A stretch of 64,000 nt of DNA from Naegleria gruberi (GCA_000004985.1 GG738845.1); one strand, 5' to 3'. Shown: positions 5,137-63,670, counted from the first letter of the stretch. The notes: generated by a model not told the origin, from the letters alone. Translations and numbers: made by a program.

Positions 5137-5657
5137 TATTACTAGTGTGTTATCCAATAATAATAAATAATAGATGTGTTGGGTGATTAATAAGACTGAT
5201 CAGATCGCAACTTAAACTGCTTTTTTTAAAGTGAATTTGCACACAACATGAACTGAATGAAAAGGGAACAACAACGGTCACATGTTAAGGTTTAACTGAA
5301 AAGGGCGCTTGGCATCTATAAGGCAGATGAGGAGGGAAAGAAGTAATAAGGAAACACGCTTCACCATTCTTAAAGACTAGTGCATTATTATGGAAATATT
5401 GACTTCAAATACTATAAACAATACGCCTCTATTCAGATATTAATTTTAGAGGTCTCTTAATGTATTAATAAGACAATGGGTTTTAACATCCTTCTTCCAT
5501 TTTTGTTTTTATATCTGGATTACTTCACATTGATTCATTATATTGTCTAAAAGTGCTTTCGTGACTGATGTTTGTCAGGTCTAATAAATATTAAAATATA
5601 AAAAATAATAAAATATTAATTTCTTTTTAAAAGCGATTTTTTAGATTTTATTAAAAA

Positions 5658-8600: not shown

Positions 8601-10240
8601 ACGAATATGCCTACACCACTCAATCTGTTGGATACGGCGTATTGTTACAACATTGTTCAACCAATACCAAACTCAAATTTTTGTTGGATTATCTAGAGAC
8701 AATGAGAGCAACCAGGGCTAGGGTTTTCTCCTCTTCTGAGGAGGAAGAAAACGAGGCAGAAAAGGACGAATATTTTGGAGCAATGAATTTTGGAAAAAAG
8801 CCAACCAACACACAAAAAGAATCTCCTATCAAACAACAACTCTTTTTTGAAGACACTTTTGAAACAATTCAATATAATTCCAAGCTCTTTGGATTGATTC
8901 TATGCTTGTTACCGAGAGTGGATGATCTTTGCTTACTGTTGAATGTATGCACCAAGTTTAATCCAGAGGAAAACTCTTTCATCACCAAGGAAACAAGACA
9001 AACTTCTTCTGCACTAATGAAAGATCCATCCTACACAAGATATTTCCATTACCCTTATATTCACTTGGAGCAACACTTGGAAATTTTTATAGTGGCAATG
9101 TTGTGTCTTGTTAATTTGAAGAAGAAATTGGCATTCAATCTCCCAGATTCTACTAATTCTCTCAATATTTCGTCTAACAATCTTTATACCCATACACAAG
9201 AAAAGTTGGAACAATGTATCAAGTGCTATAACATGTACAGAAAGCAATTCGTTGTATCATACTGCTTGAAATTACATAACAAGTCAGTGCTTGCACTTAT
9301 CTATGAGAAGGACGAAATGTGGATCGATGCACTTTGTTGTAAATTAGTACAACTGAAAGAAAACTTTAAGATTGTACTGCAGGAGCCTACAATGATGGAA
9401 AATTTACTCAAACAATTCTACACCATATTTGATCGCTATCTCACCAACAAATCAAATGAACTGGATGAAGAAACCAAACTAAAAATGTTGGAAAAGCTTT
9501 TCAACTTCTACTGTAGTCTTTCACTACCGGTTTCAAAACTCGAAGATCATTGTCTGAGGAATATACACATTATTGGAGATACTTTATCCCTTCTCTTACT
9601 GCTCCCATCTCAAAATAATGCAAGTGGAAGTATACTCAAAAAGAATCTCAAATTTTCTCATCAATTCTATCTTAAGATTACTCAAAGCTATGTTAGAAAT
9701 GTCAAGAGGCACGAGAAGGAAGAGGAAAAGGCCTCCAAAAATCTTCTCCAACAAATATTTAGAAATATGGAAAAGGACTTGTACAAGAGAAATTACATAT
9801 CAATCACTCAATCTGAAATATCAAGACTTCACCAACAAGATGAGAAATTGGTAGTGTTCACTTGTGGCGATCATTATACTAGAACTAATTTTACAAACAA
9901 TATTATTCCAGAATTCAAGAACCGAACAAGTCAACTAATTTCTGTAATGAGCTCTGATCTCAACAAGAAGGTTTTCAACTTGGCAACGGATTACATTTTG
10001 AAAGATTACCAAAACTTACTCGAAGAAAGGTGCATGCACACCAACCAAGCTTGTCCAATTTGTGTCTTTAACTTTTTCTTAAAAAATGAAAAAGCCAAAG
10101 TGCAAAAATTGAAACCACAAGCAACCAGAATGTTCCATCACCAACAAATACTTCCCAACAATAGTAATCCTTCTAATTTAAGTGAAGGCACACTCCAGTA
10201 TATTTCAAATATTGAGAAAATTACTTCTTGGACCTTATAA
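5658..10240 (+). CDS. Large uncharacterised protein (~1525 aa) whose C-terminal zinc-finger-like tail (VVFTCGDHY ... CPIC) resembles HOPS/CORVET-family subunits
   Basis: Track ORFs 5658..7139 and 7142..10240 are in different frames. A 47-nt intron at 7111..7157 (GTACTG...GAAAG), phase 1, gives ...YYVIF-E-DSIIGGFKYG. The 5' site is non-consensus, so a frameshift remains an alternative. There is no ATG near 7142. Confidence 0.5.
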
Positions 10241-10363
10241 TAAACTGGCAACTTTCAAAAATATGATATTTGATAGAAAGATCTCAACAAAATAATGAGT
10301 TACTTGGGATGTAATGAATTTCTGAAATTGTTGTCAAAAAGAACAAATATTGAAGAACTAATT

Positions 10364-11626
10364 TTATCTCTTTACAGGTCTATTTGTAGATGGTGTAGAT
10401 CTTGTTCTGTTATTTGTTGGTTTGGTATCAAGTTTGGTTGATTGTTGAGTTGTATCCAATGGTTGTGGATTCTTTGCCTCCTTTGCTTTCAAAACCTTTT
10501 CTTGGATTCCTTCATAATTTGTTAAAAACACCAAACGATAAGCTCTCTTCCAAAGACGTTGATATCTACTGTGTACCTTGAGTCTCTCAATTTTTTCCTT
10601 CTCATTCTTTCTTTTATCTCTTTCCTCGTTTCTCTTTCTCTTTTCTTCCTCCATTACTGCAATAGCATTCTCCAAGAATACTACTCTCTTTTGGTCTCTA
10701 TTGTAATCTTGAACAAGTTGGTTGTATTTTTGAGTGTGTTCACTCATGAAATTGTCATATTTTGTAACAAAATCAAAAACTTGTTGTTCAGAGGTCAATC
10801 TGTCAAGTTTCATGTCACCTTCATCCTTGTGGTGATCCATCTTTAGCTCTGCAATCATTAATTCACATTGCTTGATTTGATCCTTAAGCATTTCCTCAAA
10901 TTTCAAGAATTTGCTATGTGCAACATCCTCTTGTGTTTTCATTGATCCACTAAATTCCTCTCTTTGGTTATTTGTACTCATTTTGAGAGCTACTAATTCT
11001 TCCTCAAGTTTCTTTAATGTTTCTTCTCTGGCAGACACTTCCTTTTCTCTGGTACTTCTCACTGAGGCAAGTTCTCTTTGAAGAGCTTTAAGGTCAGCAT
11101 TTGACTTCTTTTCCCTTGCAGCCTTTTCATTCTTTTGGTCATTCATTACTTGCTCTTCTTCCTTGGTTGTATGTAATTTATCTGCATAAATATTAACCAT
11201 CTCCTTCATGATATATACAAATCGTTCCAATCCTTCATCAGGTTTTAATGGATTTACTTGATCCACATTAAAATTGTACTGATTTAATAATTTACAAAGC
11301 TTCATATAGGTTTTCTTTACAGAAGACGAATCCGGATTTTGTACATATTCCTTAATTTTGGCATCTAGAGCCTGTTCTAGTTCATACAGCTCATAAACTG
11401 ACGAAAGAGCAGCCTCATTAATTAAGAGAGGAAGCTCACCCGAAAATAACTGATGATGTTGTGGCAAGAATTGAAGGTAACGCGTTTGAGTCAAGTGCTC
11501 ATTCAAAACCTTGATAATTCTCTCTCTTTCATCGGTTAGTTTTTGATTCATTTTGTTTAAAAATATTTGTAGAGGTGTGGTTTCAAAAAATGGCGGCAAA
11601 TGCATGAAAATATTGTCATTAAACAT
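10364..11626 (-). CDS. Coiled-coil protein with a K/E/R-rich C-terminal half; function unknown
   Basis: A 420-aa ORF with ATG at 11626 and long heptad-like charged stretches. Confidence 0.5.
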   Translation of the reverse strand: MFNDNIFMHLPPFFETTPLQIFLNKMNQKLTDERERIIKVLNEHLTQTRYLQFLPQHHQLFSGELPLLINEAALSSVYELYELEQALDAKIKEYVQNPDSSSVKKTYMKLCKLLNQYNFNVDQVNPLKPDEGLERFVYIMKEMVNIYADKLHTTKEEEQVMNDQKNEKAAREKKSNADLKALQRELASVRSTREKEVSAREETLKKLEEELVALKMSTNNQREEFSGSMKTQEDVAHSKFLKFEEMLKDQIKQCELMIAELKMDHHKDEGDMKLDRLTSEQQVFDFVTKYDNFMSEHTQKYNQLVQDYNRDQKRVVFLENAIAVMEEEKRKRNEERDKRKNEKEKIERLKVHSRYQRLWKRAYRLVFLTNYEGIQEKVLKAKEAKNPQPLDTTQQSTKLDTKPTNNRTRSTPSTNRPVKR

Positions 11627-11845
11627 TAAAAATATTTAACTAATATTACAAAAATATTTAAAATATTATGAAAAGGTGGCGATTTATTATTGAAAGCATT
11701 TCAATTCGCCGACTTGTAGGCTAAAATTTTTCCATTTAAAAAAATTCAACCACCATAGTGACGAAGGAATTTTTAAACCACTAAAATCGGAGTCGATTAA
11801 AATCTTCATCGTCAACACTACTATTATTTATAAATATATCGGAAA

Positions 11846-18669: not shown

Positions 18670-20898
18670 ATGTCTGCATCCAAGACAGCTATTGTTTCAA
18701 CCTTAGTGGTTGTTATGATGGTTTTGATCCAAAGTGCCTTGTCTCTTAAGAATTCTGCCCACAAGAGAAGTGAAGATGACTGGATTCCGGGTAGGTTTTA
18801 TTGTTGTTCTTGTTGCGGATATTTATTCTGTAATTTTTTATATTAAGGCTACAATTACATGTTGAGCGGTTTCGACGTTAGAAGTATGCAAAGTTCTTCT
18901 AACAGCATGGATCCTGCTAAGAATGTTGTAAATTTAATTTTCAGACCAACCACTGAGTTTGGAACTTTGTACCGTATGCCAGTTTCTAAGGAAAAGTTTA
19001 AGGTACCAGATGCCATTGAAGTTTATGATTATGTTACTACAAACGTTACTAAAACATCAGACACTATGGAATCAATGTCTGAATCATTGAAGTATGAAGC
19101 TTCAAGCTATTCATTCTCATTCTCTGTCAACGTTGGTGTTGTCGGTGTTAGTGCTGGTTTGAACACATCTTTTGGCCACATTCACCAAACCTTTGCTCAA
19201 AGCAATCTCTTTATGGCCACTGGTTCTATTAGAGGTACTATTTATCAAGCTACCCTTGAACCACCAACATTCTTGGAACAAAATCCATACTTTAAGAGAG
19301 CTTTGGCTGCCATTCCAAACACTCCAACTGCTGCCGATTTGGACAAGATTAATACCTTGATCAAATACTTTGGTGTTTCATATGTTTCAAAGGGTGTTTT
19401 CGGTGGTAAATTCAATTTGATCACTAAGGTTTCTGATAAGATCCTCAAGTCCTATGACAAGTCTTGGTGTATTACTCAATTGTCCTTGACCTTCAGTTAT
19501 GGCGCTTATTCATTTGGTATGTCTGGATTCAAAAATAAGACTGATATCCATGTCAATAATGATTTTGCCAATAACGCCAAGACTGACATGTTCTTCGTTG
19601 GTGGTGACTTTACTTTGCAAAGTAACGAAACTCTTAAGGAATGGTACCAATCAATTCCAGGCCAACCATCCCTTATCGGAGGTGAATTCAATTTGATTTC
19701 TGATTTGGTTGATAACAATGCTGTAAAGAAGAAGAATTTGGAAGCCATCTTGAAGAACTATGTTGCCACTGGTAGAGTTGAAATTCCTGCTTCCATCAAG
19801 AAGATTGCTGTTCCTCATCCACTCAAGAGAAATGTCCTCCTTGATCTTTCTCGTATTCCAGGTGCTGCCTTGATTGGTTCTGGTTTCGATACCTTTACGT
19901 AAGTTGTTTTTTGTTTAAATCTCAACTAATTAACGTTAAATAGTCTCACTCCAAGATTGAGTCTTTTCAAGCAAGCTCCAGATTCCAAGGCTACTACTTG
20001 GACTAATCCAATCTATAAGGATATTCAATTCGCTGTTCCAGGAAACGTCCTCGTCAGAAATAATGCTGAATCATACTATGCTAACAGCACTTTTGTTGCT
20101 TTGACCAAGCAAGAATACGAATATCAATATAGAGAACACTCCTCTAAATCTGGCATGTTCGGTTTGAGTCACCATTCTAGAGATGTTTTCATTTATAACT
20201 ATCGTTATGAATTTGAAGATTCTTACCAATTGAATACTTTCAGAAGAATTTCTTGGTATGATTTGTCATTGGATCCTCTCTGTTTGTTCGATCTTAATAA
20301 CCGTCTTGAACCATTTGCTAAGAGAATGATTGATTCTCTCCCAGCTACTGGTGGTGATCAAAAAGAAGTCAGAGATAAGTACAAGAAGTTTATCGATTAC
20401 TATGGTACTGCTGTTGTCACCAAGACAACTATGGGTGGTGGTATCTTCTTCAAGGTTAACTTTAAGAAGGATTTGACCAAGACTTTGAGCATTCATGAAA
20501 TCCACGAACAATCTGGATGGTCATTCCTCCACATTTTCGGTGAAAAGTCAACTCACGATTTCTATCTTAAGAAGTTGTCTCAACAGTTCATTCAACACTC
20601 GTCTGTTGAATTCAACACTCAAGGTGGTTCTTGGACTCCAGAAATTAACGGTGTTAGACCAACTGGTCCAAATGCTCTTAACATTATTGATTCTCCAGAA
20701 GGTTACATGAGTTGGGAAGATTATGCTAACTCTATCAAGTATGACCCATACCCAGTCAACTATGAATTGCAACCAATTCACACTATCTTTGCTGATAAGG
20801 CCAAGCAAGGTATTATGAAGTCTGTTCTTGATGAATATCTCCAAGAAAAGTACAATCAAAAGCCAGCTTCATTCTCCAGAGCCGGTAAGGAATACTAA
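18670..20898 (+). CDS. Secreted protein with two tandem MACPF (perforin-like) domains; 3 exons, ~708 aa
   Basis: Exon 1 is 18670..18790 and encodes the signal peptide MSASKTAIVSTLVVVMMVLIQSALS. A 57-nt intron lies at 18791..18847 (GTAGGT...TTAAG). Exon 2 is 18848..19898. A 45-nt intron lies at 19899..19943 (GTAAGT...AATAG), in phase. Exon 3 is 19944..20898. Each half carries SGFD...SFSFSVNVGVVGVSAG...YFGVSYVSKGVFGG or YYGTAVVTKTTMGGG, and a C9-like end (YDPYPVNYELQPIHTIF). Confidence 0.75.
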
Positions 20899-24834: not shown

Positions 24835-26559
24835 ATGTTGAGAAAATCACTCACCACTGTATCATCACAAGGCGGAAAAAAGTTGATGTTTGCCAATAGC
24901 AATAAATTGGCTCTGTTCAACAACAATAACATCACTACTTCATCTTCTTCCTTCCATACCGCTTCGCAAAAGTTCGATACAACAAAACCTGCTGCTGCCC
25001 CTATTGCACAACAACAACAACAAAAGGGTAATAATAACAGTGGAAGCGGACAACAAACAAGTGGAGGATCTATGGGTAAAACTGTTGTCATTTCAACACT
25101 CTTGACTGGTGCTCTCGGTGTTGGTTTTGTTCTTTATTTTAATAATTATTTGCAATCACTTGAAAAGAAAAACCAAGAACAAGCTTCATCTATTGAATCA
25201 CAAAAAAAGAAAATTCAAGCTGAAAAACTTGAACAAGATAATGATAAGATTAATTCTATTAACTCTGAATTGGAAGGATTGGAAAAGGCTCACTCTGCTA
25301 AATTGTCAGCCTTGAAGGAAACTTATACCAACAAGATGAATGAATTACAACATCAATTGAATGCTATCAATGAAAAGATTACATCATTAGAAAAGGAAAA
25401 GAATGATCTTTCTGTAACTCTTGAAAAAAATAGAAAGAAACAACTTGAATTGCTCTCCGAAAAGGAAAATTTAATCTCTGAAAAGAAAACTTTGGAAGAT
25501 CAATTAAATAGCTTTAGTAGTTTGAAGGTCAGAAGTACTGATGCCGTTCTCTCTGATATTTTGGGAAGACAAGTTGAAGAAGGTGAAGTCCTCACTGAAG
25601 AAGATAGAGACAAGTTCCTCTCACGTATTCAACGTTTGGAATCTCAAGTTAAGAGAAAGGATAAAATGATTGAACAAATCAAACAAGAAACTGAAGAAAA
25701 TATTCAAAGAATTAAGACTATTAGTCAAGAAAAATTACGTGCTGTTCAATCTGAATCTGAAGAAAGTATTAAGAAATTGGAATCTGAAATGGAATCTGTT
25801 AAAAATGAATATAGTGCTTTAATTGCCAAGGAAAGAGAAACTATTCTTGATGAATTTGAAAAGAAGATGCAAGAACAAGCCCATAGTTTATTAATTGGAT
25901 ATTATGATAGTGTACTTGATAGATCTAAACATGTCCAAGAATTGACAAACAAAGTCTATGCTATGGAAGAAACATTCAAGGTTGCATCTGCTAATTTCTC
26001 AAATAATATTGATTTACAAAACTTGACAGCTGCTGTTTTGGCTTTGCAAGATACTCTTCAAACAAATGCTCCATTCAAGCCAGAAGTTGATACTCTTAAG
26101 AGATTATCAGATAATGATGAATTTTTGAAGGCTGCTTTAGAATCTATTCCAAAATCGATAACAGAATCTGGTGTATTGAAACTTGATGATTTGACATCTA
26201 GATTCAAGATTGTTAAAAAGAAGGCTATCGAGGCATCACTTATACCAGAAGAAACTGGTCTTATGGGTCTCCTCTTGGCCAAGACCTTATCTGTAGGAGT
26301 TGTTGCTGAAGAAGGATTTGTGGATGGTGATTCTTTACCAGCTATTTTATCCAGAGCTGAATTTTATTTAAAGCAAAAGAGATTAACAGATGCTGTCAAT
26401 GAAATCAATAAGGCTTACTGTGTTGCTCCAAAGAATGTCACACAAGTCATTGAAGATTGGGCAACCGAGGCAAGAAATAGACTTTTAGTAGAACAAGTTC
26501 TTGAAACTATGTCATCACATTTGGTCATACAATCACACTCCTTAAAGCAACAAAAATAA
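24835..26559 (+). CDS. mic60: MICOS complex subunit MIC60 (mitofilin)
   Basis: After an N-terminal presequence-like region comes one TM (VVISTLLTGALGVGFVLYF), then a long coiled coil. The C-terminal mitofilin signature is AEFYLKQKRLTDAVNEINKA...VIEDWATEARNRLLVEQ. Confidence 0.75.
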   Translation: MLRKSLTTVSSQGGKKLMFANSNKLALFNNNNITTSSSSFHTASQKFDTTKPAAAPIAQQQQQKGNNNSGSGQQTSGGSMGKTVVISTLLTGALGVGFVLYFNNYLQSLEKKNQEQASSIESQKKKIQAEKLEQDNDKINSINSELEGLEKAHSAKLSALKETYTNKMNELQHQLNAINEKITSLEKEKNDLSVTLEKNRKKQLELLSEKENLISEKKTLEDQLNSFSSLKVRSTDAVLSDILGRQVEEGEVLTEEDRDKFLSRIQRLESQVKRKDKMIEQIKQETEENIQRIKTISQEKLRAVQSESEESIKKLESEMESVKNEYSALIAKERETILDEFEKKMQEQAHSLLIGYYDSVLDRSKHVQELTNKVYAMEETFKVASANFSNNIDLQNLTAAVLALQDTLQTNAPFKPEVDTLKRLSDNDEFLKAALESIPKSITESGVLKLDDLTSRFKIVKKKAIEASLIPEETGLMGLLLAKTLSVGVVAEEGFVDGDSLPAILSRAEFYLKQKRLTDAVNEINKAYCVAPKNVTQVIEDWATEARNRLLVEQVLETMSSHLVIQSHSLKQQK

Positions 26560-28964: not shown

Positions 28965-31900
28965 TTATTGAGAATCACCACCTGTTTGATCAATTAGGTC
29001 TGTTTCACTATTGTCATGATCATTTTCTTGATTTGTAATATGTTGGGTGCGATTAGAATTTTCGACATGGTGAACATGTTCATCTATCAAATTCATGGCA
29101 TTCAAACTATTCCTCAATGATGGGGTATTACTAATAACACTTGGTTGCTTGTCGAAATATTCTTCAGTATTATTCAAATCCAATGTTGTTCCAACAACAT
29201 CAGGTGGTTGCAGAACAGTAGTCAATTGTGGTGAGCCACTAGTTGCTGGTTGCTGTTGTTGCTGAAGCTGTGAATCAGTAGTAGGAAGAGTGGCTTTAGA
29301 ATTCTTTCTGTTGAGATTCTTCGTTGATGGCATTCTAGTGTTGTTTGGTTGTTTTTGAGGTGTTTCTTGTTTCTTCAAAGACTTCTTTTTCAACCTCGCC
29401 TCCTCTTGTTGCAAATAATAATTGAGAGATTCAACTATTGGACCAGATGGATTACTAATTCTTCCTTCTTTCTGTTTCTTATCAACAAATTTAACAAGTT
29501 TAACATGGAAACACTCTTGTTGAGTTTCTCTATATGAATTCTTATGATACCATTCTGGTTTCAACCAACTTCCCATCGGATCAAATATTATAGAATAGTA
29601 ATAACGACACGAAGTATCTGTCAGTCTCTTAACCATGAATGCAGTTTTAATCTCAGCTCTATATTTGTTGATTGGCATTTTAGGATTGTTGATGGAACGA
29701 GATATGCACAAGTAAACTTCTTCCTTTCTATCGTATTGACAACTGTAGGCATGAACTAGCTCTCTATTCTTGTGTGGGAATGGCATTTTGAATATTTCAT
29801 GACAAACAGTATGCGCATACTTTCCAACTTTAACGAAATCAATTTGTTGAGATTGAATCAAATGGTCAATCCTGGTACCATACGAGTCGTGGTCAATCCA
29901 GGCATTGAATAATTCGTGATGTGTACAATTCATATCATAAATGTACTTGATTTGCACGTGACGTCTTGAATTAGAAAGGTGATTGTGAGAAACCTCTGGT
30001 GCGAAATAAGTTTTACCACCAGAAGTTTCGAATATAACTCTCCACTGATTCAAATCTTGTAATAATTCCTTTCTATTATCAAATTCCCAATCATTAAATC
30101 TGTGATTTTCCAAATTAATAATTTCAGTTCCACACTTTTCACAAAACAGAATAAATTCCTTCTCATCATCTTCATCTGCACTTGATGATTCTCCTTCTCC
30201 TTTCATGTAGGATCTCAACTGTTCTGGATTTCTCTTCTTTTGTTCCAAGAATTTGCTGAAAATTTTTGATTTGACAAAGCTTGGAAATTCGTGTTTGAGT
30301 GCCCTAACAGACAAATTGTAAAAGTTTTCAAATAGGTCAACTGGACAATTATCTTCATTACATTCATTGAATTTAATTTGAAATGGTCCAAATGCATTCT
30401 TCATGTATTTAAATTTCAATCTCTTTGGAGCATTTTCTGCCAAATATTCCTTCACTAAATGCTTAGCAATTCCAAATCTAACTGGAGAGCTTGCATTATC
30501 CTTGTACTCAATGGCGTGTAAATAGAAAGCCAAAATATCAGCTAATTGTATGAATATTGAAATGTATTGTAATGATTCAACCTTCATAACTACACTTACA
30601 GTTTGGAGTTCCATTTACGAATTCCTTAAACAAATTGATAAATGCTGTATCTTGAACAATTTTAAGGAATTGATAAGTTTCGTGTGAGTGTAAATTCACA
30701 TTTGAGAACATGGCTTCGAATGATTGGTCTGAAACTGTCATTAAAGAAATATCATGGTGTTTCTCTTTCAATAAATAAGTTGAAACCACAACTGATGGTT
30801 TAATTTCCAAACCTTTCACTTCATCAAATTCGAAAATATCGTACACTCTTTCATAAGTCTTTCTGCTGACTTGAATTCTTCCAGGTATTCCCTTCGATTC
30901 CATCACTTGGCAAATTGTCATTATCAATTTTCAAATTACAAAACTTACAATTAGCTATAGTTAATGTTTCTCCCCACAAATCATATGCAAATTTGAGATT
31001 ACCAATACATCCAGCAATAACTGGTCCTGAGTGAATTCCAATTCTAATGTTCAAATTCTTATTTTGTTGCGCATTATATTTTGTAATGACTGATAACATG
31101 TGAGTGGCGAATAGAATAACCTTTTCGGGGTGATCTGACGATTGGTTTGACATGCCTCCTACACAGAAGTAGGCATCTCCAATTGTCTTTATCTTTTCCA
31201 ATCCGAACATGTGTGTTAAATTATCAAATCCATTCACAATGTGATTCAATAATTGAATGAGCTCAGTAGCTGTCAAAGTTGATGACATTTTGGTAAATCC
31301 AACCATGTCACTATACAGACAAGTAACATCATCAAACTTTTCTGAAATACATGTTTCACCAGCTTTCAATCTCACAGCAATACGTTCAGGCAAAATATTT
31401 AACAAAAGAGAATCAGATTTCCTGCGTTCCTCTTCGAGTAGAATTTTAAACTTCTTCTCAAATGTAATGTCTCGCAACAAGATGGTGACTAGATTCTTAT
31501 TTTCGTACATGTAAACAGACAGAGAAACTCCAACAGCTACAGTCGAACCATTCTTTCTCAATGCTTCTAGTTCAACATATTCGCCAATGGATTGCTTGGC
31601 TGAGAACATGACATCGAGGAGCAATTTCAATTTACTAGCTTGTTCACCTTCACCAAAGAGTGCCATTACATCTGTTATTTCATTCATGGCGTATCCTAAC
31701 ATTTTACAAGCAGATTGATTAATAATTTCAACGAGAGTCGTGTTGGTTTTCAAGACAATCACTCCATCAACTGCTCCATCTAAAATAGCTTGTGATTTGC
31801 TTGTTTTACTCTTTTCCTTACGCTCTCCCAAATTGTAAAACAATACGAATTGTTTAATTTCTTCAATATGTGAAATTGTGTCAGTTGGTAGCATGTTCAA

Positions 31901-34900
31901 TAATCTTCTCAAGTGATTGCATTCCTCAGTGTATTTGTTTAATTGAGAATAGTGAAAGAAGCAATTAATGAATATCAAGAATAAGGCTATGATGTAGATG
32001 GCCAGAGAAATTGGAATTCTCACCCCAATCATTGAGCTCACTAAATAGGTTGATAACAAATCAATCTTATCGCTAATCAGCTTATTGATTTGAATTAATT
32101 TGATAAATAAATTTTCATTTTCCAATCCCATGTTGGATGAATATAAGCTATCCATAATTACGGCATAATTTTCAATTAATGAATCTAAACCGTCACACGC
32201 ATACTTAATATGACAATTATTTGAGGTATTGGAGTAAATGTCGGAAATAGCTGTGATGTGAATAGAGTTGCTGTAACTTGTTTCATTTGTATAACTATCT
32301 TCAAGAACCTCATTCATCATTAAGGCAAATTGCTTGACATTTTCTGGATATTGTTCAGATCCATACCTAAATAGAATCCATGATTCTTCTAGACCTGATT
32401 GAAGACTATATTTATACGTATTACTTTCCAAGTAAGTATTAGTAAGCATCAACTGCTCACTGCTAATTGAATTCAAAAATTTTCCCATATGACTTATTTT
32501 AAATGTTACACTGTGTGAATATGAATCAGTAACCATCGACTCCCAAAATGATATAGATAATGATATAATTGAAACACAATAGGTCATTACCACGATCAAT
32601 AGTAATTTCTTTGAGAAATTGAGAAAAGATGGAGAAATATTGTGATTCTCATTCGATTTTTGTCTTGACAATTTCTTTTCCAATGAGTGAAATATCATAC
32701 CAACAACATCTTTAGGTATTTTAGTGAAGAGTGAAATGATCTTTTCTTTGGTATTGAAAAACAGCTTTGAAAATATTAAGTACAGTATAAACACAATACT
32801 GAAGGAGCCAATTAATGTGCTGAATACAATAATTAATTGATCTGATGGTTTTGAAATCATTTCATTAACCATAGATTGGCAGAAACGTGTTAAATATTCA
32901 CTTGTACTGTTGTGGTTCAATTCTAAGTACAAATATTCATAATTACTATTGAGTGTTTCTAGAGTTGTAAATTTCCAATTCTTGATAGAATCTCCAATAA
33001 CATTCAAATCAGTTATCATTGTGGAGATGGATACATTTTGATAATTGATCACCACTCCATTCTTTGAAATTGTTGGAATAATGACAGGGAAATTGTTTTG
33101 TGAATAATAGTTTAGTTCAGTATTTTTCAATACTCCATACTGATTCATTTTCCCCTTATTTAGAAAAGTTTCCAAAGTGGATATTCTACTCTTGAAGTAA
33201 TTGAAATAATCAAGGGAATGGTAATGGCTGGCTAGTTTTACTTCTCTTAGTAATGAATGAGGAATAAACGATAGCTGGCAACTATTCTTAATTGTAATGA
33301 TGTCGCTTCCATTGGAAGTAACAATAAAACTTGTGATAATAGCCCCAGTTATGAATAGTATGGAAATAAATTGAATAATCAACAAGTAAATATTCTGCTT
33401 TTTCAAATTCAAATGAGTGTTAATAGAATCTCTGAAAACTTTTTCAGTCAACCTGAATGACTGTTTTTTAGTAAAAGATTCATTGATTGGTATTATTTTA
33501 GAACTTGATCTTTTGAAACTCTTTGATCGATCTAAATCAATACTTGAAGATTTTGTATCAATTTCTGAATTTTGAAAAGCATCCATATAGTCATTATTTT
33601 CAAATAAAAACTCAGCAAAAAATTGTTGCTTTCTCTTCAATATTTGTTGATTTTCTGGGTAGTTCAACATTAAGTGATTGAAAATAGATAATATTGACTC
33701 CTGTACATTGAACATTTCATGAATTAGTGAGTCAATTTTTTCCAAATCATCTTCATTCGAAACAAAGTATTGCCAAAAGAACTTTCTTAAAAATCTCAAC
33801 TTTTCCTGAAGATTTAGTTGCCTCTCCAATAGTGTTCTAATCTCTGAAGTTGTCTGCTGTCCTGAATTCAACTCAATTTCCTGTATTTTAGTTTGGATTA
33901 TTAATCGTTGAAGGATATTTGATTGTCTGTTAGCATATCTCAAAGTATTGAGTGAAAACAGAGGATTATCATGAAATATGGATGTGTAAACTGCACTCAC
34001 AATCAAAGTTGAAATGTTGAGTTGTGACTTTTTACTCATGCAAAATTTAATCAATTCCTCATCCAATTCAGTAGCATGCATTTTCAATTTTAGACAATTC
34101 TTTAGATACTTCTCTGGAAAGTTGTGATTGAAAAAACTAACTCCGTCCATTTGATTTCTGTATTCGAGAGCAGCTCTCTTCATTATTAGATTGTAAATTT
34201 CAACAATTCCAAAACCAATAAAAAAGAGAATTATCAAACCTGATATTCCACCTCCTAATAAAATAGACAATCCTATTGGCATGTCATTAGTAGTATTCAC
34301 GTAGAGAGATACAATTTCACTTTCACTACCACTAAGTTTGGCTAAAATAACTCCTCCATATATTGAGCCAAATCGATGATTTAAAAAAGGCATGTTCAAT
34401 ATTAAATATACAAATAGTAAAATTGAAATGATGACGTTTAGCAATGGTCTAATGATAAATACTTGAGGAGGAATAAATTGAGAAATAAATACATATAATT
34501 GGTTGAGAATTGAAAATATTGCAATAAATTCAAATGATTCCAATGAAAGAAAGGATGGTCTTCTTCTCATTCCCAAACTACTAGATTCAATGATTATTAT
34601 AATACCTAATATTGTGAGTGGAATTTGTACAATTATGTAAACAATTGAAAATCCAGCTAATATTCCATTAAACAAGGACCAACACTCTACGTTTGGAAAT
34701 CTTCTGAGTCGATATGAATTTTCATTATAATCACATGCAATAAATGTTGTTGCCCAATACGTAAATACCAAATTAAATATTGCAAAAATACATAAAAATA
34801 TTCTGACGAAATACTTGAATTTCCCTAAATAGGAACTTCCGTTTTTAAATGCTAAATATGAAAAATATAAACTTAATAAAGTTAATAACTCGAAAGAAAA

Positions 34901-35436
34901 CAAAATAATGACTATAATTTGTAAAGATTCATAACTGTACCAATCAGATCCAAAAGTTCGGAGAGCTGATTGTGAAAAAATTACAATATCTCCAATTTTG
35001 GAAAAGTTAAATTCTAACAAAAAAACAAATAAATAAATGCAAAATACAGGAAATCCAACCTACCAGACTCAAAACTAATACTCAAAGTCCCATAAATTAT
35101 CGAATAACAATGGAACATCAAAAGTGACCATTGAGGAATAGGCGATTTCACTAACAAGGATAAAATCATCATTGAAAATTGTTCAATTTTGGCATTCACA
35201 TAACTTATCTTATCCATTGGATTAGCTGCAGACCCCTTTGATATATCGGAAGCTACATTGAGAGCAGAACGTGAGTCATCGAGCGAATTCCTTTGCCCAG
35301 TTTCATATTCTTTAAGGACTGGGGCTAAGAGTGGTGAACTGTTTCCTCCTGAGAGTGTATGAGGAGTGTTTCCTCCACTATTATTACTTGAAACACTTGT
35401 TGATATAGCGAGACTCCTCACTTTTTCTGCCATCAT
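28965..35436 (-). CDS. Polytopic membrane receptor-like nucleotidyl cyclase with PAS, class III cyclase and RGS domains plus a Q/N/T-rich tail (~2106 aa, 4 exons)
   Basis: Exon 1 is 35436..35064; the ATG follows an in-frame TTG at 35445. A 50-nt intron lies at 35063..35014 (GTAGGT...TTGTTAG). Exon 2 is 35013..30949. A 43-nt intron lies at 30948..30906 (GTAAGT...CCAAG). Exon 3 is 30905..30600. A 58-nt intron lies at 30599..30542 (GTAAGT...CAATTAG). Exon 4 is 30541..28965. Total coding length is 6321 nt, which is divisible by 3. There are at least 10 hydrophobic helices and a PAS-like segment (GAVDGVIVLKTNTTLVEIINQSACKMLGY...). The cyclase core is FDDVTCLYSDMVGFT...KIKTIGDAYFCVGG...IRIGIHSGPVIAGCIG...YDLWGETLTIAN/LMESKGIPGRIQVS. 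The RGS domain is split by intron 3: SFEAMFSN...AFINLFKEF...|SDILAFYLHAIEYKD...FPSFVKSKIFSKFL. Confidence 0.7.
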
Positions 35437-60882: not shown

Positions 60883-63670
60883 ATGGAAGTTTTGGATGAT
60901 CAATTATCTTCCTCATTGTTATTATCATCGGAGGAAGACAATTCTTCAAGCTTGAATAATAATGGCACAATAAATAATCAGCAACAACAGGAAGTAGCCA
61001 CTAGTGTAATAAATAGTGAACAATCATTTCATATTCTAGAGTACAATAACAAGTTATTAAATCAATTGGAAGAACATCAAAAAAGTCCGAATGTTATTGT
61101 TAATAGTAATAATGTATTATATCATTCTATTCAATGTTTAATTTATTGGGATTACGAAAATATTTCGTTATCATCAAATATTAATCAATTTAAAAGTAAT
61201 ACTGTGACTACAAGTGTATTTTTATCAAGTTTAATTAATAGATTGGAGGCGGAGTTACAACAATACTATAATAATTATTTAAATATGAACAATAATAATG
61301 TTGTAAATAATGTTCAAATTAAAGTCAATACACCATTTATTAAAGTATATGGAGATATGTATCAAATACCCAAGTACAGAAGAACTGAATTTTATCAAAA
61401 TGGATGTCATTTGATTGATGTTCCTCACTTGGGAACTACTAGGAAAGAAGTGGTTGATAAAATGATGTTAACAGATGTGTTAATGGATTTGAATATTTAT
61501 AATAGACCTATTTTCAATCAATTTATGAACACTCAATCCAATGTCTTACCTAGTACAGCTATAATTTTGTTAACAGGAGATCAAGATTTTTGCCATTTAC
61601 TATCAAGATTGAAATATCAATCAATTCCATCTGTTGTAATCATTAAAAAGGATCAAACTCAACACGGAGGTTCTATGTATGATTCTGATAGTGATCAATC
61701 TATTAACACTTTATTACAAGCTTCAACTTTTTGGATTCCTTTTGAAAATGTCTATAATGATTCATTGAATTTTATGAAATTTGAAAAGACTCGTTTATTG
61801 AATGGTGGAGGAGTTTTAGCATCGAACACCATTCCAACAAACAATAGTGTTTCATTACCAAATAATAACATTTTGACGACACAACCTGTCACCACTAGTA
61901 ATTACATTACCAATGGTAATACCAACAACAATACTGTTAATAATGTGTTATAATAATAACATTTCTGATGAAGATAAAAGTGGGGATGAAAAGAAGGAAG
62001 TTTCCCTTGATGAATATATTGAAAGTATTTCTCCACAAACTCCTAGAGAACTACTTCCAAAAGATATCAAACTTATTAGTTTTATTTTATTGAAATATGT
62101 GGAGCCATTAGAATTGGGAAATTTGAGTTCACAACTTGTCAACTTGAATATTACTCCTAAAAAATTGAAAAAATTCATTGAAGGTTATGATAATAGCCAA
62201 TTTATTGAGTTAATCAAGAGTAAAAACTCAACCAATATTTTACTTACAGATAGGAAGAAAATCTTAAAGTTATTGCCAAATTATGTTAAAGTTACAATTA
62301 CCAAAAAGAAGAGCCTGTTAAATATCCAATCAGCTATAACTGTTGATCATACTGTAATTGATGAAGTTGGAGAATCAAAAGAATATCCAAAATTCCAAAA
62401 GTTTGATGATGAAAATAATCATGAAGAGAATAGTAATGGAAAATTAGTAGAGCCTGCATTCAAAATGTCTTTGGAAGAATACATTATGAAATATCTTTCA
62501 GCACCAAACAAACGAGATTTAAATAGTACGGATATGTACTTGATTTGTTTCATTCTATTGTTGGAAGATAATATGGAGTTGGGAGCTTTGAGCAGCAGAT
62601 TATATCAATACAGAGTGAAACCAAGATCATTGAAAAAGAATCTGATTGAATTTAACACTTTGGGAGATAAGAACGGTCAATTGGTTGGCATTTTCAAATT
62701 AGAACAGAGAGGAAACATGTTGTTTATTGCATTGACAGACAGAAATGTTGTCATGAATTTATTACCAAAGAATGTAGAGTTTACTCCACCTCCTAAAACT
62801 CCACTATCCTTAATACTGAATAATAGTATTTTTGGTGATAACAACCAATTAATATCTCCAAATGTAAGCCAGTTAATACCAAAACAAACTCAATTAGCCA
62901 AATTACCGAAAAAGGTACTATCTGAGAATAATATTGTAGATGCTAGCCCTACTGCCGTGCCATCGTCACCAAGCAAATTAGCAAGTAGTTCAGATAATGA
63001 TGATAATTTATCTGTGGGAAGAGCAAGTGTTTCATCCAGTGGTGCATCCTCTTCTCAAAGTGTTGGAAATGAAAGCAATGATAGTCCTGCAAACAAGGAT
63101 GGAGAGGAGGAGGAATCGTCTGTTTCTTCTGGCAATGAAAACATTGAAGGAAAGAAGAGTATCACCAATGATATCCTGATGGAATTGGAGGATACAGTCA
63201 AGGATTTCAAGGATCAAAAGATGAGCTACTTGACAGTGAAAAATCATTACACCAAGTTGGGATTCAACACTAAACACTTGCAAAGAAAAATTGTACAATT
63301 ATCTCCTCACTTGAATGTTGTTCAAAGAGGAAATGAAATGGTAATTGAATACGACAGTCAAAAAACAACCACTGTACCTTCCAATCTATCGAATAATTTA
63401 CAAGTTTATTCAAAGAAGGAACATAAGGTTGCAACATTCCATGATATTTTGAAAATTATTGAAGATTTATCTTCCAGCTATCCATATGAGGCAGATCTTT
63501 CTCTTGTTGGTACAATTGTAAAACAATTAGGATGGCGTGTTGAAGGTAATATGAAATTGAAAGATTTTCTCCAAATGAATGATACTTCACAAATATTACA
63601 ATTTGACAAGACCAAGAATAATTGGATGATTAAAATCAAAAAGAAAACAAAGAAACAAACTCTCAATTAA
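60883..63670 (+). CDS. MARF1/limkain-b1-like protein with an NYN ribonuclease domain followed by about four LOTUS (OST-HTH) repeats
   Basis: The NYN region is IYWDYENIS...NGCHLIDVPHLGTTRKEVVDKMMLTDVLMDL...AIILLTGDQDFCHLLSRLKYQSIPSVVII. Repeated units of the form ...ISFILLKYVEPLELGNLSSQL...KKFIEGY...ILLTDRKKILKLLPNYVKV follow. Track ORFs 60883..61953 and 61913..63670 would be joined by a tentative 58-nt intron at 61916..61973 (GTAATA...GATGAAG), giving exons 60883..61915 and 61974..63670. An alternative is a 34-nt intron at 61947..61980. A frameshift is not excluded. Confidence 0.55.

What the first reader, a model, noticed from the sequence alone, without database searches (positions are those of the whole stretch)
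28965..35436. One gene fuses a polytopic membrane module, PAS, class III nucleotidyl cyclase and an RGS domain
Four exons are joined by 50-, 43- and 58-nt introns, all GTAAGT/GTAGGT...AG and phase-consistent; total CDS is 6321 nt. The second intron repairs the cyclase motif YDLWGETLTIAN|LMESKGIPGRIQVS. The third intron lies inside the RGS domain, so helices alpha1-3 (SFEAMFSN...AFINLFKEF) are encoded in the cyclase frame and the remainder (ILAFYLHAIEYKD...FPSFVKSKIFSKFL) in the downstream frame. Without splicing, the two ORFs would overlap by 38 nt on the same strand. A receptor-like cyclase carrying its own G-alpha GAP (RGS) domain would couple cNMP synthesis and G-protein turn-off in one polypeptide. 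I do not know of a described cyclase-RGS fusion.
Basis: partly seen in the sequence, partly recalled or inferred. Interest (0 to 1): 0.8.

Follow-up and report, generated by a model that had tools for sequence, protein, structure and literature searches.

The report
Naegleria membrane cyclase fused to RGS–START
This is one real Naegleria gruberi gene for a 2106-residue membrane protein that joins a sensor-like membrane module, a PAS domain, an adenylyl-cyclase-type domain, an RGS domain and a lipid-binding START domain; the public annotation skips one of its exons, and both the cyclase and the RGS domain lack key catalytic residues.

Summary
Four exons on the minus strand (35436..28965) are joined by GT..AG introns of 50, 43 and 58 nt, giving a 6321-nt CDS of 2106 aa.

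Pfam finds PAS_9, a full-length Guanylate_cyc and a full-length RGS. The RGS passes threshold only in the spliced model.

The window is Naegleria gruberi. The public model XP_002683621.1 is 100% identical but lacks aa 1-331 and skips exon 3.

In N. lovaniensis and two Logan assemblies, the cyclase C-terminus, RGS and the downstream domain lie in one uninterrupted ORF. The fusion therefore does not depend on the predicted introns.

RGS–START is a pre-existing cassette. It occurs stand-alone (Acrasis kona), ankyrin-linked, and cyclase-linked. The cyclase-linked form was seen only in Naegleria, as two paralog groups.

The functional reading needs correction:
- The cyclase keeps both metal Asp and AC-type Lys/Asp. 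In all five orthologs it lacks the transition-state Arg and the KGKG lysine, and usually the Asn. This makes it C1-like.
- The RGS has Lys at the RGS4 Asn128 position.

It is most likely a regulatory or heterodimerising cyclase subunit with a Gα-docking RGS-homology domain. I found no published description of this architecture.

The parts
28965..35436 (-). Whole gene: 4 exons, 6321-nt CDS, 2106 aa. It corresponds to Naegleria gruberi NAEGRDRAFT_45297 with a corrected model.
   Evidence: Searches give the splicing and translation. Searches show 100% identity to XP_002683621.1 over aa 332-1479 and 1582-2106.
35064..35436 (-). Exon 1 (aa 1-124 plus 1 nt). It has a low-complexity N-terminus and the first hydrophobic segment.
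   Evidence: An in-frame stop lies 6 codons upstream of the ATG. Residues 85-123 are 59-62% identical to N. lovaniensis and locus L004.
35014..35063 (-). Intron 1, 50 nt, GTAGGT...TTAG, phase 1.
   Evidence: In N. lovaniensis and L004 the tblastn match also breaks and changes frame at about aa 123-125, as expected for an intron there. GC is 0.26.
30949..35013 (-). Exon 2 (aa 125-1479). One uninterrupted ORF carries the membrane modules, PAS and the first two thirds of the cyclase domain.
34181..35181 (-). N-terminal block of about 7 hydrophobic segments (aa 86-402). Absent from the public gene model.
   Evidence: Kyte-Doolittle scan. No Pfam family matches.
33602..33814 (-). Weak TmcB-type TPR helical region (aa 525-595).
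   Evidence: PF25474 scores 13.7 bits, E = 0.061, here. It scores 65 bits in N. fowleri paralog P0265 and is present in many Naegleria PAS-cyclases.
31955..33391 (-). Four TM helices (aa 666-684, 851-869, 928-946, 1126-1144) flanking two long, mainly helical loops. This is a putative extracytoplasmic helical-bundle sensor.
31463..31768 (-). PAS domain (aa 1207-1308).
   Evidence: PAS_9, E = 1.8e-12.
31361..31435 (-). Helical linker with the motif LLLNILPERIAVRLK (aa 1318-1342), of the cyclase-transducer-element type.
   Evidence: Read directly from the sequence. The same motif is conserved in all aligned PAS-cyclases. The CTE assignment rests on established knowledge of class III cyclases.
30766..31345 (-). 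Class III nucleotidyl cyclase domain (aa 1348-1526, interrupted by intron 2). It is AC-type and C1-like: Asp1360 and Asp1404 (metal), Lys1400 and Asp1469 (adenine) are present; Asn->Thr1474, Arg->Leu1480 and KGKG->KPSV (aa 1515-1518).
   Evidence: Guanylate_cyc 3-182 of 183, E = 6.4e-50. HMMER alignments to AC8 and AC9 C1 and C2. Comparison with paralogs and orthologs.
30906..30948 (-). Intron 2, 43 nt, GTAAGT...CCAAG, phase 1. It lies inside the ...IAN|LMES... motif of the cyclase.
   Evidence: N. fowleri and locus L002 show a break in the tblastn match at the same residue (IAQ / VMES), consistent with an intron. N. lovaniensis and L004 have none and read straight through.
30600..30905 (-). 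Exon 3 (306 nt, aa 1480-1581). It encodes the C-terminal third of the cyclase domain plus RGS helices alpha1-3. The public N. gruberi model skips it.
   Evidence: It is 61-80% identical to orthologs. It is required for full-length Guanylate_cyc and RGS hits.
30542..30599 (-). Intron 3, 58 nt, GTAAGT...TTAG, phase 1. It lies in the RGS alpha3-alpha4 loop and contains the TGA at 30577.
   Evidence: It is absent from all four orthologous loci, which are colinear and gap-free here.
28965..30541 (-). Exon 4 (aa 1582-2106 plus stop). It encodes the rest of RGS, the CxxC motif, START and a low-complexity tail.
30249..30669 (-). RGS / RGS-homology domain (aa 1559-1679, interrupted by intron 3). The residue at the RGS4 Asn128 position is Lys1624, and at the Asn88 position it is Ile.
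   Evidence: Pfam RGS 27.5 bits, 2-117 of 117. The best single-sequence PDB hit is RGS17, E = 0.017. The family profile hits RGS8 at 1.3e-11, GRK2 RH at 1.2e-10 and RGS4 at 2.7e-8.
30081..30164 (-). Near-invariant motif EKEFILFCEKCGTEIINLENHRFNDWEF (aa 1708-1735) between RGS and START. It may be half of a zinc ribbon.
   Evidence: The columns are invariant across Naegleria cyclase-linked members. The ankyrin-linked member P0124 has a weak Zn_Ribbon_1 hit. The function was not tested.
29406..30107 (-). START lipid-binding domain (about aa 1727-1960).
   Evidence: Pfam START does not reach threshold on this protein itself. It passes in the orthologs, which are 64-66% identical over the aligned RGS-START region: P0002 33.3 bits, P0001 26.6 bits, gathering score 22. 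The family profile containing this sequence hits STARD10 at 2.4e-13, PCTP at 6.5e-8, and StAR, CERT, STARD5 and STARD6.
28968..29405 (-). Low-complexity Q/N/S/T-rich tail (aa 1961-2106). It is not conserved in orthologs.

Best explanation
Shown: a single Naegleria gruberi gene (NAEGRDRAFT_45297, mis-modelled in the public annotation) encodes a 2106-aa multi-pass membrane protein. It belongs to the large Naegleria family of TmcB-type TM / PAS / class III cyclase proteins. At its C-terminus it has acquired a pre-existing RGS-(CxxC)-START cassette.

Inferred mechanism:
- The protein dimerises through the helical linker and cyclase domain, as class III cyclases do.
- This paralog (type A) keeps the two metal-binding Asp and the adenine-specifying Lys and Asp. 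It has lost the transition-state Asn and Arg and the gamma-phosphate Lys.
- It is therefore the C1-like half of a pseudo-heterodimeric adenylyl cyclase. The missing residues would come from a canonical partner. The most obvious candidate is the type B paralog with the same architecture and a fully canonical site.
- As a homodimer it should be nearly inactive.
- The RGS-homology domain, with Lys instead of the GAP-critical Asn, most likely serves as a docking site for an activated G-alpha. This would work as in the RGS-RhoGEF effectors, with weak or altered GAP activity.
- The STARD10/PCTP-like START domain adds a lipid input or membrane tether.
- The membrane-proximal helical-bundle loops and the PAS domain are the upstream sensors.
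For: One gene:
- Exon 2 is one 4065-nt ORF covering TM, PAS and cyclase.
- The cyclase tail, RGS and START lie in one uninterrupted ORF in locus L004 and in P0002 (L002). In N. lovaniensis the cyclase tail and RGS are read in a single frame.
- The public N. gruberi model also joins them.

Exon 3 is real:
- Pfam hits are full-length only with it.
- It is 61-80% identical to orthologs.

C1-like cyclase:
- HMMER alignments give 116 bits to AC8 and AC9 C1 against 78 bits to C2.
- 'IANLMES' matches AC9 C1 'LANLMEQ'.
- The Arg position is L, A, L, V, V. The Asn position is T, N, S, T, S. KGKG is KPSV, KPGV or KPGH in five orthologs.
- All other Naegleria PAS-cyclases inspected, and paralog B, have NxASRMES and KGKG.
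- The metal Asp, Lys and Asp are strictly conserved. The catalytic domain is 52-76% identical between orthologs (highest in N. lovaniensis and L004), while the membrane module is about 30-43% identical. This argues for retained function.

RGS:
- The Asn128 equivalent is Lys in all Naegleria cyclase- and ankyrin-linked members (Gln in one).
- It is Asn in 7 of the 8 stand-alone RGS-START proteins aligned (Ser in one).

START and the cassette.

Precedent for an effector enzyme using an embedded RGS domain to engage G-alpha in Naegleria: Nf RGS-RhoGEF (PMC9283941).
Against: - I have no transcript, protein or activity data.
- Heterodimerisation with paralog B is pure inference. I could not show that N. 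gruberi has a type B gene; B was seen in N. fowleri and one Logan sample.
- Residue-based calls of 'inactive' can fail. Some RGS proteins tolerate Ser at the Asn128 position, and Naegleria G-alpha subunits are divergent.
- The RGS alignment to metazoan RGS proteins is weak for the single sequence (E = 0.017). Residue equivalences rest on a MAFFT family alignment.
- START is below Pfam threshold on this protein itself.
- The AlphaFold model of the RGS-START region was unusable (pLDDT 38).
Confidence: 0.6

Rival explanations
1. One reading: a catalytically competent receptor-type cyclase homodimer whose own RGS domain is an active G-alpha GAP. One polypeptide would both make cAMP or cGMP and switch off the G protein.
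For: - Both Pfam domains are full-length and above threshold.
- The metal Asp, Lys and Asp of the cyclase are intact.
- The acidic residues equivalent to RGS4 Glu87 and Asp163 are conserved.
- Paralog B has a fully canonical cyclase site joined to the same RGS-START cassette. The coupled design is therefore plausible for B.
- RGS domains in Naegleria effectors can be true GAPs.
Against: - The transition-state Arg is missing in all five orthologs, as is the KGKG lysine. The Asn is missing in four of five.
- RGS4 Asn128 is replaced by Lys and Asn88 by Ile or Met throughout the cyclase-linked clade. Stand-alone relatives keep Asn128.
Confidence: 0.2
2. The public exon-3-skipped model is the true or dominant transcript. 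It has one 407-nt intron, 30948..30542, giving ...TLTIAN|SDILAFY.... The protein would then have a truncated cyclase domain and a partial RGS domain. Alternatively, exon 3 is an alternatively spliced, frame-preserving cassette that switches the protein on and off.
For: - Exon 3 is 306 nt and is flanked by introns of the same phase, so skipping keeps the frame.
- The JGI/NCBI model XP_002683621.1 uses exactly this junction.
Against: - Exon 3 is an open 102-codon frame, 61-80% identical to orthologs.
- In N. lovaniensis and L004 it is contiguous with its neighbouring sequence, with no introns to allow skipping.
- Skipping removes the last third of the cyclase fold and RGS helices alpha1-3. Pfam then gives Guanylate_cyc 3-134 of 183 and no RGS.
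- A 407-nt intron would be about eight times longer than the short introns seen in this window.
Confidence: 0.08
3. Two separate genes: a membrane PAS-cyclase ending at the TGA at 30577, and an independent RGS-START protein starting at ATG 30614. The N. fowleri annotation is split in this way.
For: - The unspliced ORFs exist and overlap by 38 nt.
- N. fowleri is annotated as two genes, FDP41_007269 and a 481-aa START protein.
- Stand-alone RGS-START proteins exist in Acrasis kona.
Against: - An ORF starting at 30614 lacks RGS helices alpha1-3 and scores only 11.5 bits for RGS.
- In N. lovaniensis, L004 and L002 the cyclase tail and RGS are one continuous ORF.
- The N. fowleri cyclase model ends by reading into an intron (...PVVAGWYVLFFTVL). 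The split is therefore an annotation artefact.
Confidence: 0.03
4. A decaying pseudo-enzyme or pseudogene: the loss of catalytic residues reflects relaxed selection, and the protein has no signalling role.
For: Key residues of both enzymatic domains are lost.
Against: - All ORFs are intact over 6.3 kb.
- The same substitutions are conserved across five Naegleria lineages.
- The cyclase, RGS and START regions are the best conserved parts (about 62-67% identity in N. lovaniensis against about 41% for the membrane module, with the same trend in the other orthologs).
- The metal-binding and adenine-binding residues are invariant.
Confidence: 0.05

Closest known systems
Naegleria TmcB-type TM / PAS / class III cyclase family (for example N. 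gruberi 'PAS domain-containing guanylate cyclase' P0011, NAEGRDRAFT_78958 P0006, and N. fowleri FDP41_003059)
   Same: - The same order of multi-pass membrane module, TmcB-type TPR region, a TM-loop-TM pair, PAS, an LLxNILPxxVAxRLK linker and a single class III catalytic domain.
- 40-48% identity over PAS and cyclase.
   Different: - Those proteins end right after the cyclase domain and have canonical NxASRMES and KGKG motifs.
- This protein has degenerate motifs.
- It carries an extra 580 aa: RGS, a CxxC motif, START and a tail.
N. fowleri FDP41_000489 (XP_044569303.1, 2109 aa): type B paralog of the cyclase-RGS-START group
   Same: - An identical overall architecture.
- About 50% identity in RGS-START, including the EKEFILFCEKCGTEIINLENHRFNDWEF motif.
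- Lys at the RGS4 Asn128 position.
   Different: - Type B has a fully canonical catalytic site: SDLVGFT, KIKTIGDAYF, YDLWGDTINMASRMES and VKGKG.
- Pfam does not call its RGS domain.
- It is only about 21% identical in the membrane module (measured for the Logan B locus).
Mammalian transmembrane adenylyl cyclases (AC5, AC8, AC9): C1/C2 pseudo-heterodimer
   Same: - Best PDB sequence matches, E = 1e-57 to 1e-52.
- The window domain resembles C1 (116 bits) more than C2 (78 bits).
- It shares the C1-type 'ANLME' motif, the two metal Asp and the absence of the C2 residues Asn, Arg and Lys.
- G-alpha regulation is a shared theme.
   Different: - There is one catalytic domain per chain, not two.
- The membrane module is unrelated.
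- Mammalian ACs bind G-alpha directly on C1 or C2 and carry no RGS, PAS or START domain.
RGS-RhoGEF effectors (Nf RGS-RhoGEF, Eh RGS-RhoGEF, mammalian p115, LARG and PDZ-RhoGEF)
   Same: - An effector enzyme with an embedded RGS or RGS-homology domain that engages activated G-alpha. In Naegleria this happens through a canonical RGS interface with GAP activity (PMC9283941).
- PDZ-RhoGEF and LARG RH domains appear among the weak single-sequence PDB hits.
   Different: - The output domain is DH-PH, not a cyclase.
- There is no START domain and no membrane module.
- G-alpha binding by the cyclase-linked RGS is untested.
Stand-alone and ankyrin-linked RGS-START proteins (Acrasis kona KAL0491886 and KAL0480747; N. 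lovaniensis C9374_007590; N. fowleri FDP41_006167)
   Same: - The same two-domain RGS-START cassette.
- The family profile hits RGS boxes and STARD10/PCTP in the PDB.
   Different: - The stand-alone members are about 425 aa, keep RGS4 Asn128 and lack the CxxC motif.
- The Naegleria ankyrin-linked members share the Asn-to-Lys change and CxxC but have no cyclase.
7TM-RGS proteins (AtRGS1; 28 in N. fowleri)
   Same: A membrane-embedded, receptor-like protein with a cytosolic C-terminal RGS domain, in an organism with self-activating G-alpha subunits.
   Different: - Those have a 7TM module directly followed by a canonical RGS.
- Here PAS and a cyclase domain intervene, the RGS is non-canonical and a START domain follows.

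Membership tests
Class III nucleotidyl cyclase (Pfam PF00211) | Full-length match to the catalytic-domain profile above the gathering score | tested here: met
   169.7 bits against a cut-off of 21.9, profile positions 3-182 of 183, in the spliced model only. The public exon-skipped model gives 3-134 of 183.
Class III nucleotidyl cyclase (catalytically competent homodimer) | Two metal-binding Asp (AC5 C1 Asp396 and Asp440 equivalents) | tested here: met
   SDMVGFT (Asp1360) and IGDAYF (Asp1404). Both are conserved in all orthologs.
Class III nucleotidyl cyclase (catalytically competent homodimer) | Transition-state Asn and Arg (AC2 C2 Asn1025 and Arg1029 equivalents) and the gamma-phosphate Lys of the KGKG hairpin (Lys1065) | tested here: not met
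   The sequence is ETLTIANLMES: Asn is replaced by Thr and Arg by Leu. KGKG is replaced by KPSV. The Arg and the Lys are absent in all five orthologs. Canonical motifs are present in the other Naegleria cyclases.
Adenylyl versus guanylyl cyclase | Purine-specifying pair: Lys and Asp for AC, Glu and Cys (or Ser) for GC | tested here: met
   The pair is AC-type: K in KIKTIGD (Lys1400) and D in YDLWG (Asp1469). The assignment follows established rules; activity was not measured.
RGS domain (Pfam PF00615) | Full-length match to the nine-helix RGS box profile above the gathering score | tested here: met
   27.5 bits against a cut-off of 23.9, positions 2-117 of 117. Exon 4 alone gives 11.5 bits. 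The family profile hits RGS8, RGS18, RGS4 and GRK2 RH at 1e-11 to 1e-8.
Canonical G-alpha GAP-type RGS (R4, RZ or R7-like) | G-alpha switch-contact residues, above all RGS4 Asn128 (Ser in the RZ family), plus Asn88, Glu87, Asp163 and Arg167 | tested here: not met
   Asn128 is replaced by Lys, Asn88 by Ile, Arg167 by Ser, Glu87 by Asp and Asp163 by Glu (consistent with the pairwise HMMER alignments to RGS17 and RGS5). The alignment is distant, so this is indicative rather than proof.
Canonical G-alpha GAP-type RGS | Measured acceleration of G-alpha GTP hydrolysis or AlF4-selective binding | not testable with these tools
   This requires the biochemistry used in PMC9283941.
START domain (Pfam PF01852) | Match to the START helix-grip profile | tested here: inconclusive
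   There is no Pfam hit on the window protein itself. The orthologs, 64-66% identical over the aligned RGS-START region, pass: 33.3 and 26.6 bits against a cut-off of 22. The 14-sequence family profile that includes the window sequence hits STARD10 at 2.4e-13 and PCTP at 6.5e-8 over profile positions 181-381. The structure model failed.
PAS domain (PF13426) | Profile match above the gathering score | tested here: met
   47.9 bits against a cut-off of 27, positions 2-102 of 103.
TmcB-type membrane proteins (PF25474 TPR_TmcB) | Match to the TmcB TPR profile | tested here: inconclusive
   13.7 bits, E = 0.061, below the cut-off of 27. Paralog B scores 65 bits. The window protein aligns colinearly with TmcB-positive paralogs at 21-29% identity.
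Four-helix-bundle (4HB_MCP-type) extracytoplasmic sensor | A TM-flanked antiparallel helical bundle resembling chemoreceptor or histidine-kinase ligand-binding domains | tested here: inconclusive

The most novel reading that the evidence does not exclude
The type A protein (this gene: C1-like, with Asn, Arg and Lys lost) and the type B protein (canonical) of the cyclase-RGS-START group form an obligate pseudo-heterodimeric adenylyl cyclase with one catalytic site and one degenerate regulatory site. Each subunit would carry an RGS-homology plus START module that recruits an activated G-alpha and senses a membrane lipid. That would be an independent, convergent invention in a discoban protist of the mammalian logic of a C1/C2 pseudo-heterodimer regulated by G-alpha, using an RGS-type docking domain instead of direct G-alpha binding to the catalytic core.
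Probability: 0.15. Interest if true: 0.75.

Novelty: new variant of a known kind. Interest (0 to 1): 0.45.

Why it matters
Naegleria has one of the largest known repertoires of G-protein and cyclic-nucleotide signalling parts. Published counts are 80-100 cyclases, more than 30 G-alpha subunits and up to 229 RGS genes (PMC9283941, PMC9928731, PMC5784254). Nothing is known about how G proteins connect to cyclases there.

A cyclase that physically carries an RGS-type G-alpha-binding domain is the first concrete candidate for such a link. It could be tested with the G-alpha/RGS assays already established for N. fowleri.

The finding also corrects a public gene model. The N. gruberi entry lacks 331 N-terminal residues and a 102-residue exon. 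The N. lovaniensis and N. fowleri orthologs are split into two genes. This explains why the architecture has escaped domain censuses: the RGS is truncated or below Pfam threshold in every annotated copy.

The conserved loss of C2-type catalytic residues gives a testable case of pseudo-heterodimer evolution in single-domain eukaryotic cyclases.

The biology is limited to one genus and rests on sequence inference only.

Tried and rejected
- Exact-sequence look-ups of the neighbouring ORF 24835-26559 and of the unspliced ORF 28965-30614 found nothing. The organism was identified only later, through the representative search and cluster look-up.
- The search for homologous proteins with the RGS-START segment and with the 14-sequence profile returned only 2 and 4 hits. 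It missed NCBI entries that the exhaustive HMMER search found, so it gave no architecture census.
The ortholog P0002 with a 4-sequence alignment gave pLDDT 38, which is unusable, so no fold search was run on RGS-START. Profile-versus-PDB sequence search was used instead.
- Foldseek of the membrane-sensor model against the PDB gave no significant hit.
- Anantharaman et al. 2011 (Gene 475:63) is the paper most likely to mention unusual RGS architectures in Naegleria. It is not held in the library, so I cannot exclude that it lists this fusion.
- Five literature searches for a cyclase-RGS fusion found none.
- I looked for a second cyclase paralog in the window, as exists next to the ortholog in N. 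lovaniensis. There is none.
- I considered GTAAGT enrichment as evidence for the introns and rejected it. The hexamer is not enriched in the window.

Full report
**1. Observation**

The minus strand between 35436 and 28965 carries four open segments.
- Removing 35063..35014 (50 nt, GTAGGT..AG), 30948..30906 (43 nt, GTAAGT..AG) and 30599..30542 (58 nt, GTAAGT..AG) yields a 6321-nt CDS. It encodes 2106 aa with no internal stop.
- The two unspliced ORFs 30577..30927 and 28965..30614 overlap by 38 nt.
- An in-frame TAA lies six codons upstream of the ATG at 35436.
- The three introns are each 26% GC; the exons are 31-38% GC.
- A similar ~45-nt GTAAGT...TAG intron joins two ORFs of a MACPF gene elsewhere in the window.
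- GTAAGT itself is not enriched. The case for splicing rests on frame restoration and homology, not on the hexamer.

**2. Domains**

Pfam on the spliced protein gives:
- PAS_9, aa 1207-1308, E = 1.8e-12.
- Guanylate_cyc, aa 1348-1526, profile 3-182 of 183, E = 6.4e-50.
- RGS, aa 1559-1679, profile 2-117 of 117, 27.5 bits against a gathering score of 23.9.

Exon 4 alone scores only 11.5 bits (E = 0.41) for RGS. A complete RGS box is therefore recovered only in the spliced model.

A hydropathy scan finds about seven hydrophobic segments in aa 86-402 and four more at 666-684, 851-869, 928-946 and 1126-1144.

**3. Identity of the locus**

The neighbours are ordinary eukaryotic genes: mitofilin, a Rab-like GTPase, MACPF and Pcf11.

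An exhaustive HMMER search followed by a cluster look-up identified Naegleria gruberi XP_002683621.1 / D2UX70 (NAEGRDRAFT_45297, 1673 aa). It is 100% identical to model residues 332-1479 and 1582-2106. The window is therefore N. gruberi.

The public model differs in two ways:
- It starts 331 residues too late.
- It skips exon 3 entirely (...TLTIAN|SDILAFY...), treating 30948..30542 as one 407-nt intron.

As a consequence, Pfam sees only PAS_9 and a truncated Guanylate_cyc (3-134 of 183) in the public protein, and no RGS.

**4. Comparative support for the gene model**

Orthologous loci were fetched from N. lovaniensis (L001), N. fowleri (L003) and two Logan assemblies (L002, L004). tblastn of the window protein shows the following:
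- In N. lovaniensis and L004, residues 1461-1655 and 1461-1974 respectively lie in one frame. The cyclase C-terminus and the RGS (and START in L004) need no splicing there.
- In L004 a prokaryote-style ORF call holds Guanylate_cyc and RGS in one ORF. In L002 the ORF P0002 holds the cyclase tail, RGS and START.
- The tblastn match breaks at the position of window intron 2 in N. fowleri and L002 (IAQ / VMES), consistent with a shared intron. It breaks and changes frame at the position of intron 1 in N. lovaniensis and L004. Intron 3 is specific to N. gruberi.
- All junctions align without gaps.
- The N-terminal extension is conserved from residue 85.

The annotations of N. lovaniensis (two genes) and N. 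fowleri (cyclase gene plus a '481-aa START protein') are fragmented. The N. fowleri cyclase model ends by reading into an intron.

Two separate genes, or exon-3 skipping as the main form, are therefore unlikely.

**5.

Orthologs carry Pfam START after the RGS: P0002 at 33.3 bits and P0001 at 26.6 bits, against a gathering score of 22.

The window protein itself is below threshold. A 14-sequence profile that includes it gives these PDB hits:
- Over profile positions 181-381: STARD10 (2.4e-13), PCTP (6.5e-8), StAR, CERT, STARD5 and STARD6.
- Over positions 7-133: RGS8 (1.3e-11), GRK2 RH (1.2e-10) and RGS4 (2.7e-8).

RGS-START is an independent cassette. It occurs in three forms:
- Alone, at about 425 aa. 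Examples are two Acrasis kona proteins and metagenomic proteins.
- Behind ankyrin repeats. Examples are N. lovaniensis C9374_007590 and N. fowleri FDP41_006167.
- Behind TM-PAS-cyclase modules.

The cyclase-linked form was seen only in Naegleria, as two paralog groups:
- Type A is this gene and its orthologs.
- Type B is N. fowleri FDP41_000489 (XP_044569303.1, 2109 aa) and Logan locus L005.

An invariant EKEFxLFCxKCGTEIINxENHRFNDWEF motif separates RGS and START in the Naegleria cyclase-linked members.

**6. The cyclase site**

HMMER alignments to solved structures show that the domain matches the C1 halves of AC8, AC9 and AC5 (about 116 bits) better than the C2 halves (about 78 bits). It shares AC9 C1's 'ANLME' motif.

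I used the established roles of residues from the AC5-C1/AC2-C2 structures. That mapping is my own knowledge; the residue correspondences come.
- The two metal Asp (SDMVGFT, IGDAYF) are present.
- The adenine-specifying Lys (KIKTIGD) and Asp (YDLWG) are present. The specificity is therefore AC-type.
- The Asn1025 equivalent is Thr.
- The Arg1029 equivalent is Leu.
- The KGKG hairpin, which carries the Lys1065 equivalent, is KPSV.

Across five type A orthologs:
- The Arg position is L, A, L, V, V.
- The Asn position is T, N, S, T, S.
- The hairpin is KPSV, KPGV or KPGH.

All other Naegleria PAS-cyclases examined, and type B, have NxASRMES and KGKG.

In N. lovaniensis and L004 the catalytic domain is about 75-80% identical to the window; in N. 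fowleri it is 52-79%, depending on the segment. The membrane module is about 30-43% identical. This is the signature of a conserved, C1-like, non-self-sufficient subunit rather than decay.

**7. The RGS site**

I aligned the window protein, its orthologs, paralog B, the ankyrin-linked members and the stand-alone RGS-START proteins with human RGS4. The RGS4 sequence was recalled from memory. Its numbering reproduces the known key residues.

The GAP-critical Asn128 position gives:
- Lys in all Naegleria cyclase- and ankyrin-linked members, and Gln in one.
- Asn in seven of eight stand-alone proteins, and Ser in one.

At other positions in the window protein:
- Asn88 is Ile (Met in the N. lovaniensis and L002 orthologs).
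- Arg167 is Ser (Asn in those two orthologs).
- Glu87 and Asp163 remain acidic.

The pairwise HMMER alignments to RGS17 and RGS5 agree.

The domain is a complete RGS fold by profile. At the sequence level it looks like an RGS-homology domain whose GAP competence is doubtful.

**8. Membrane module**

An AlphaFold model of aa 640-1200, built on a 15-sequence alignment, has pLDDT 75 and pTM 0.70. It is almost entirely helical. The four TM helices extend into long extracytoplasmic hairpins.
- Generic bundles (talin, vinculin, designed proteins) score nearly as well.
- Foldseek finds nothing significant.

'Receptor-like' is plausible but not established.

**9. Mechanism proposed**

- Shown: one gene, the domain order, the conserved degenerate residues, and the cassette origin.
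- Inferred: type A acts as the C1-like partner of a canonical cyclase, possibly type B. This would give one active and one degenerate site.
- Inferred: the RGS-homology domain docks an activated G-alpha, as in Naegleria and Entamoeba RGS-RhoGEF effectors (PMC9283941).
- Inferred: START provides a lipid input or tether.
- Inferred: PAS and the helical ectodomain are sensors.

**10. Novelty**

No paper in the searchable library describes a natural cyclase-RGS fusion. The 2022 survey of N. fowleri G-protein components lists 80 cyclases and more than 100 RGS proteins without noting it. Anantharaman et al. 2011 could not be read.

The proteins are already in public databases as hypothetical proteins. 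In each, the RGS is truncated (N. gruberi), below threshold (N. lovaniensis, 18.1 bits) or not called (N. fowleri type B). That explains the silence.

In a genus with a reported 229 RGS genes and about 100 cyclases (PMC5784254; PMC9928731), such domain shuffling is not shocking. I rate it a new variant of a known kind, of moderate interest.

Noticed in passing
window 28965-35436 (minus strand): The public N. gruberi gene model XP_002683621.1 / NAEGRDRAFT_45297 is 100% identical to the window. It omits the N-terminal 331 aa (about 7 TM segments) and the 102-aa exon 3 (30600-30905). The N. lovaniensis and N. fowleri orthologs are each split into two annotated genes.
   Followed up: yes
window 30081-30164 (minus strand): A near-invariant 28-residue motif, EKEFILFCEKCGTEIINLENHRFNDWEF, lies between RGS and START in all Naegleria cyclase-linked members. 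Ankyrin-linked members have CPKCG or CSKCG, one with a weak Zn_Ribbon_1 hit. Stand-alone RGS-START proteins lack it. It may be a metal-binding or interaction element.
   Followed up: partly
L005 (Logan SRR29240419_1655) 5149-11693, and N. fowleri XP_044569303.1: A second paralog group (type B) has the same TM / TmcB / PAS / cyclase / RGS / START architecture but fully canonical cyclase catalytic motifs. Whether N. gruberi has a type B gene is unknown, because it would lie outside the window.
   Followed up: partly
L001 18428-23627 and L004 18283-21992: In N. lovaniensis and one Logan assembly, another TmcB-PAS-cyclase gene without RGS-START lies about 4 kb downstream of the ortholog, past an EF-Tu-like GTPase gene. 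The N. gruberi window has no such neighbour and different flanking genes, so local synteny is not conserved.
   Followed up: partly
window 18859-20898 (plus strand): A MACPF-domain gene appears split into two ORFs by a ~45-nt GTAAGT...AATAG intron near 19903-19947. It resembles the short introns of the cyclase gene.
   Followed up: partly
window 60883-63670 (plus strand): ORFs 60883..61953 and 61913..63670 overlap by 41 nt on the same strand. This is the same pattern as the 38-nt overlap at intron 3, so it may be another gene joined by a short intron.
   Followed up: no
window 28968-29405 (minus strand): A 146-residue Q/N/S/T-rich low-complexity tail follows the START domain. It has no counterpart in the N. 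lovaniensis or Logan orthologs.
   Followed up: no
Acrasis kona KAL0491886.1 and KAL0480747.1 (P0139, P0144): Stand-alone RGS-START proteins in Acrasis kona are named 'cytochrome P450' and 'STARD6' in the source records. Pfam finds only RGS and START in P0144, and in P0139 only those plus a sub-threshold DP-EP hit, so the names look like mis-annotations.
   Followed up: no
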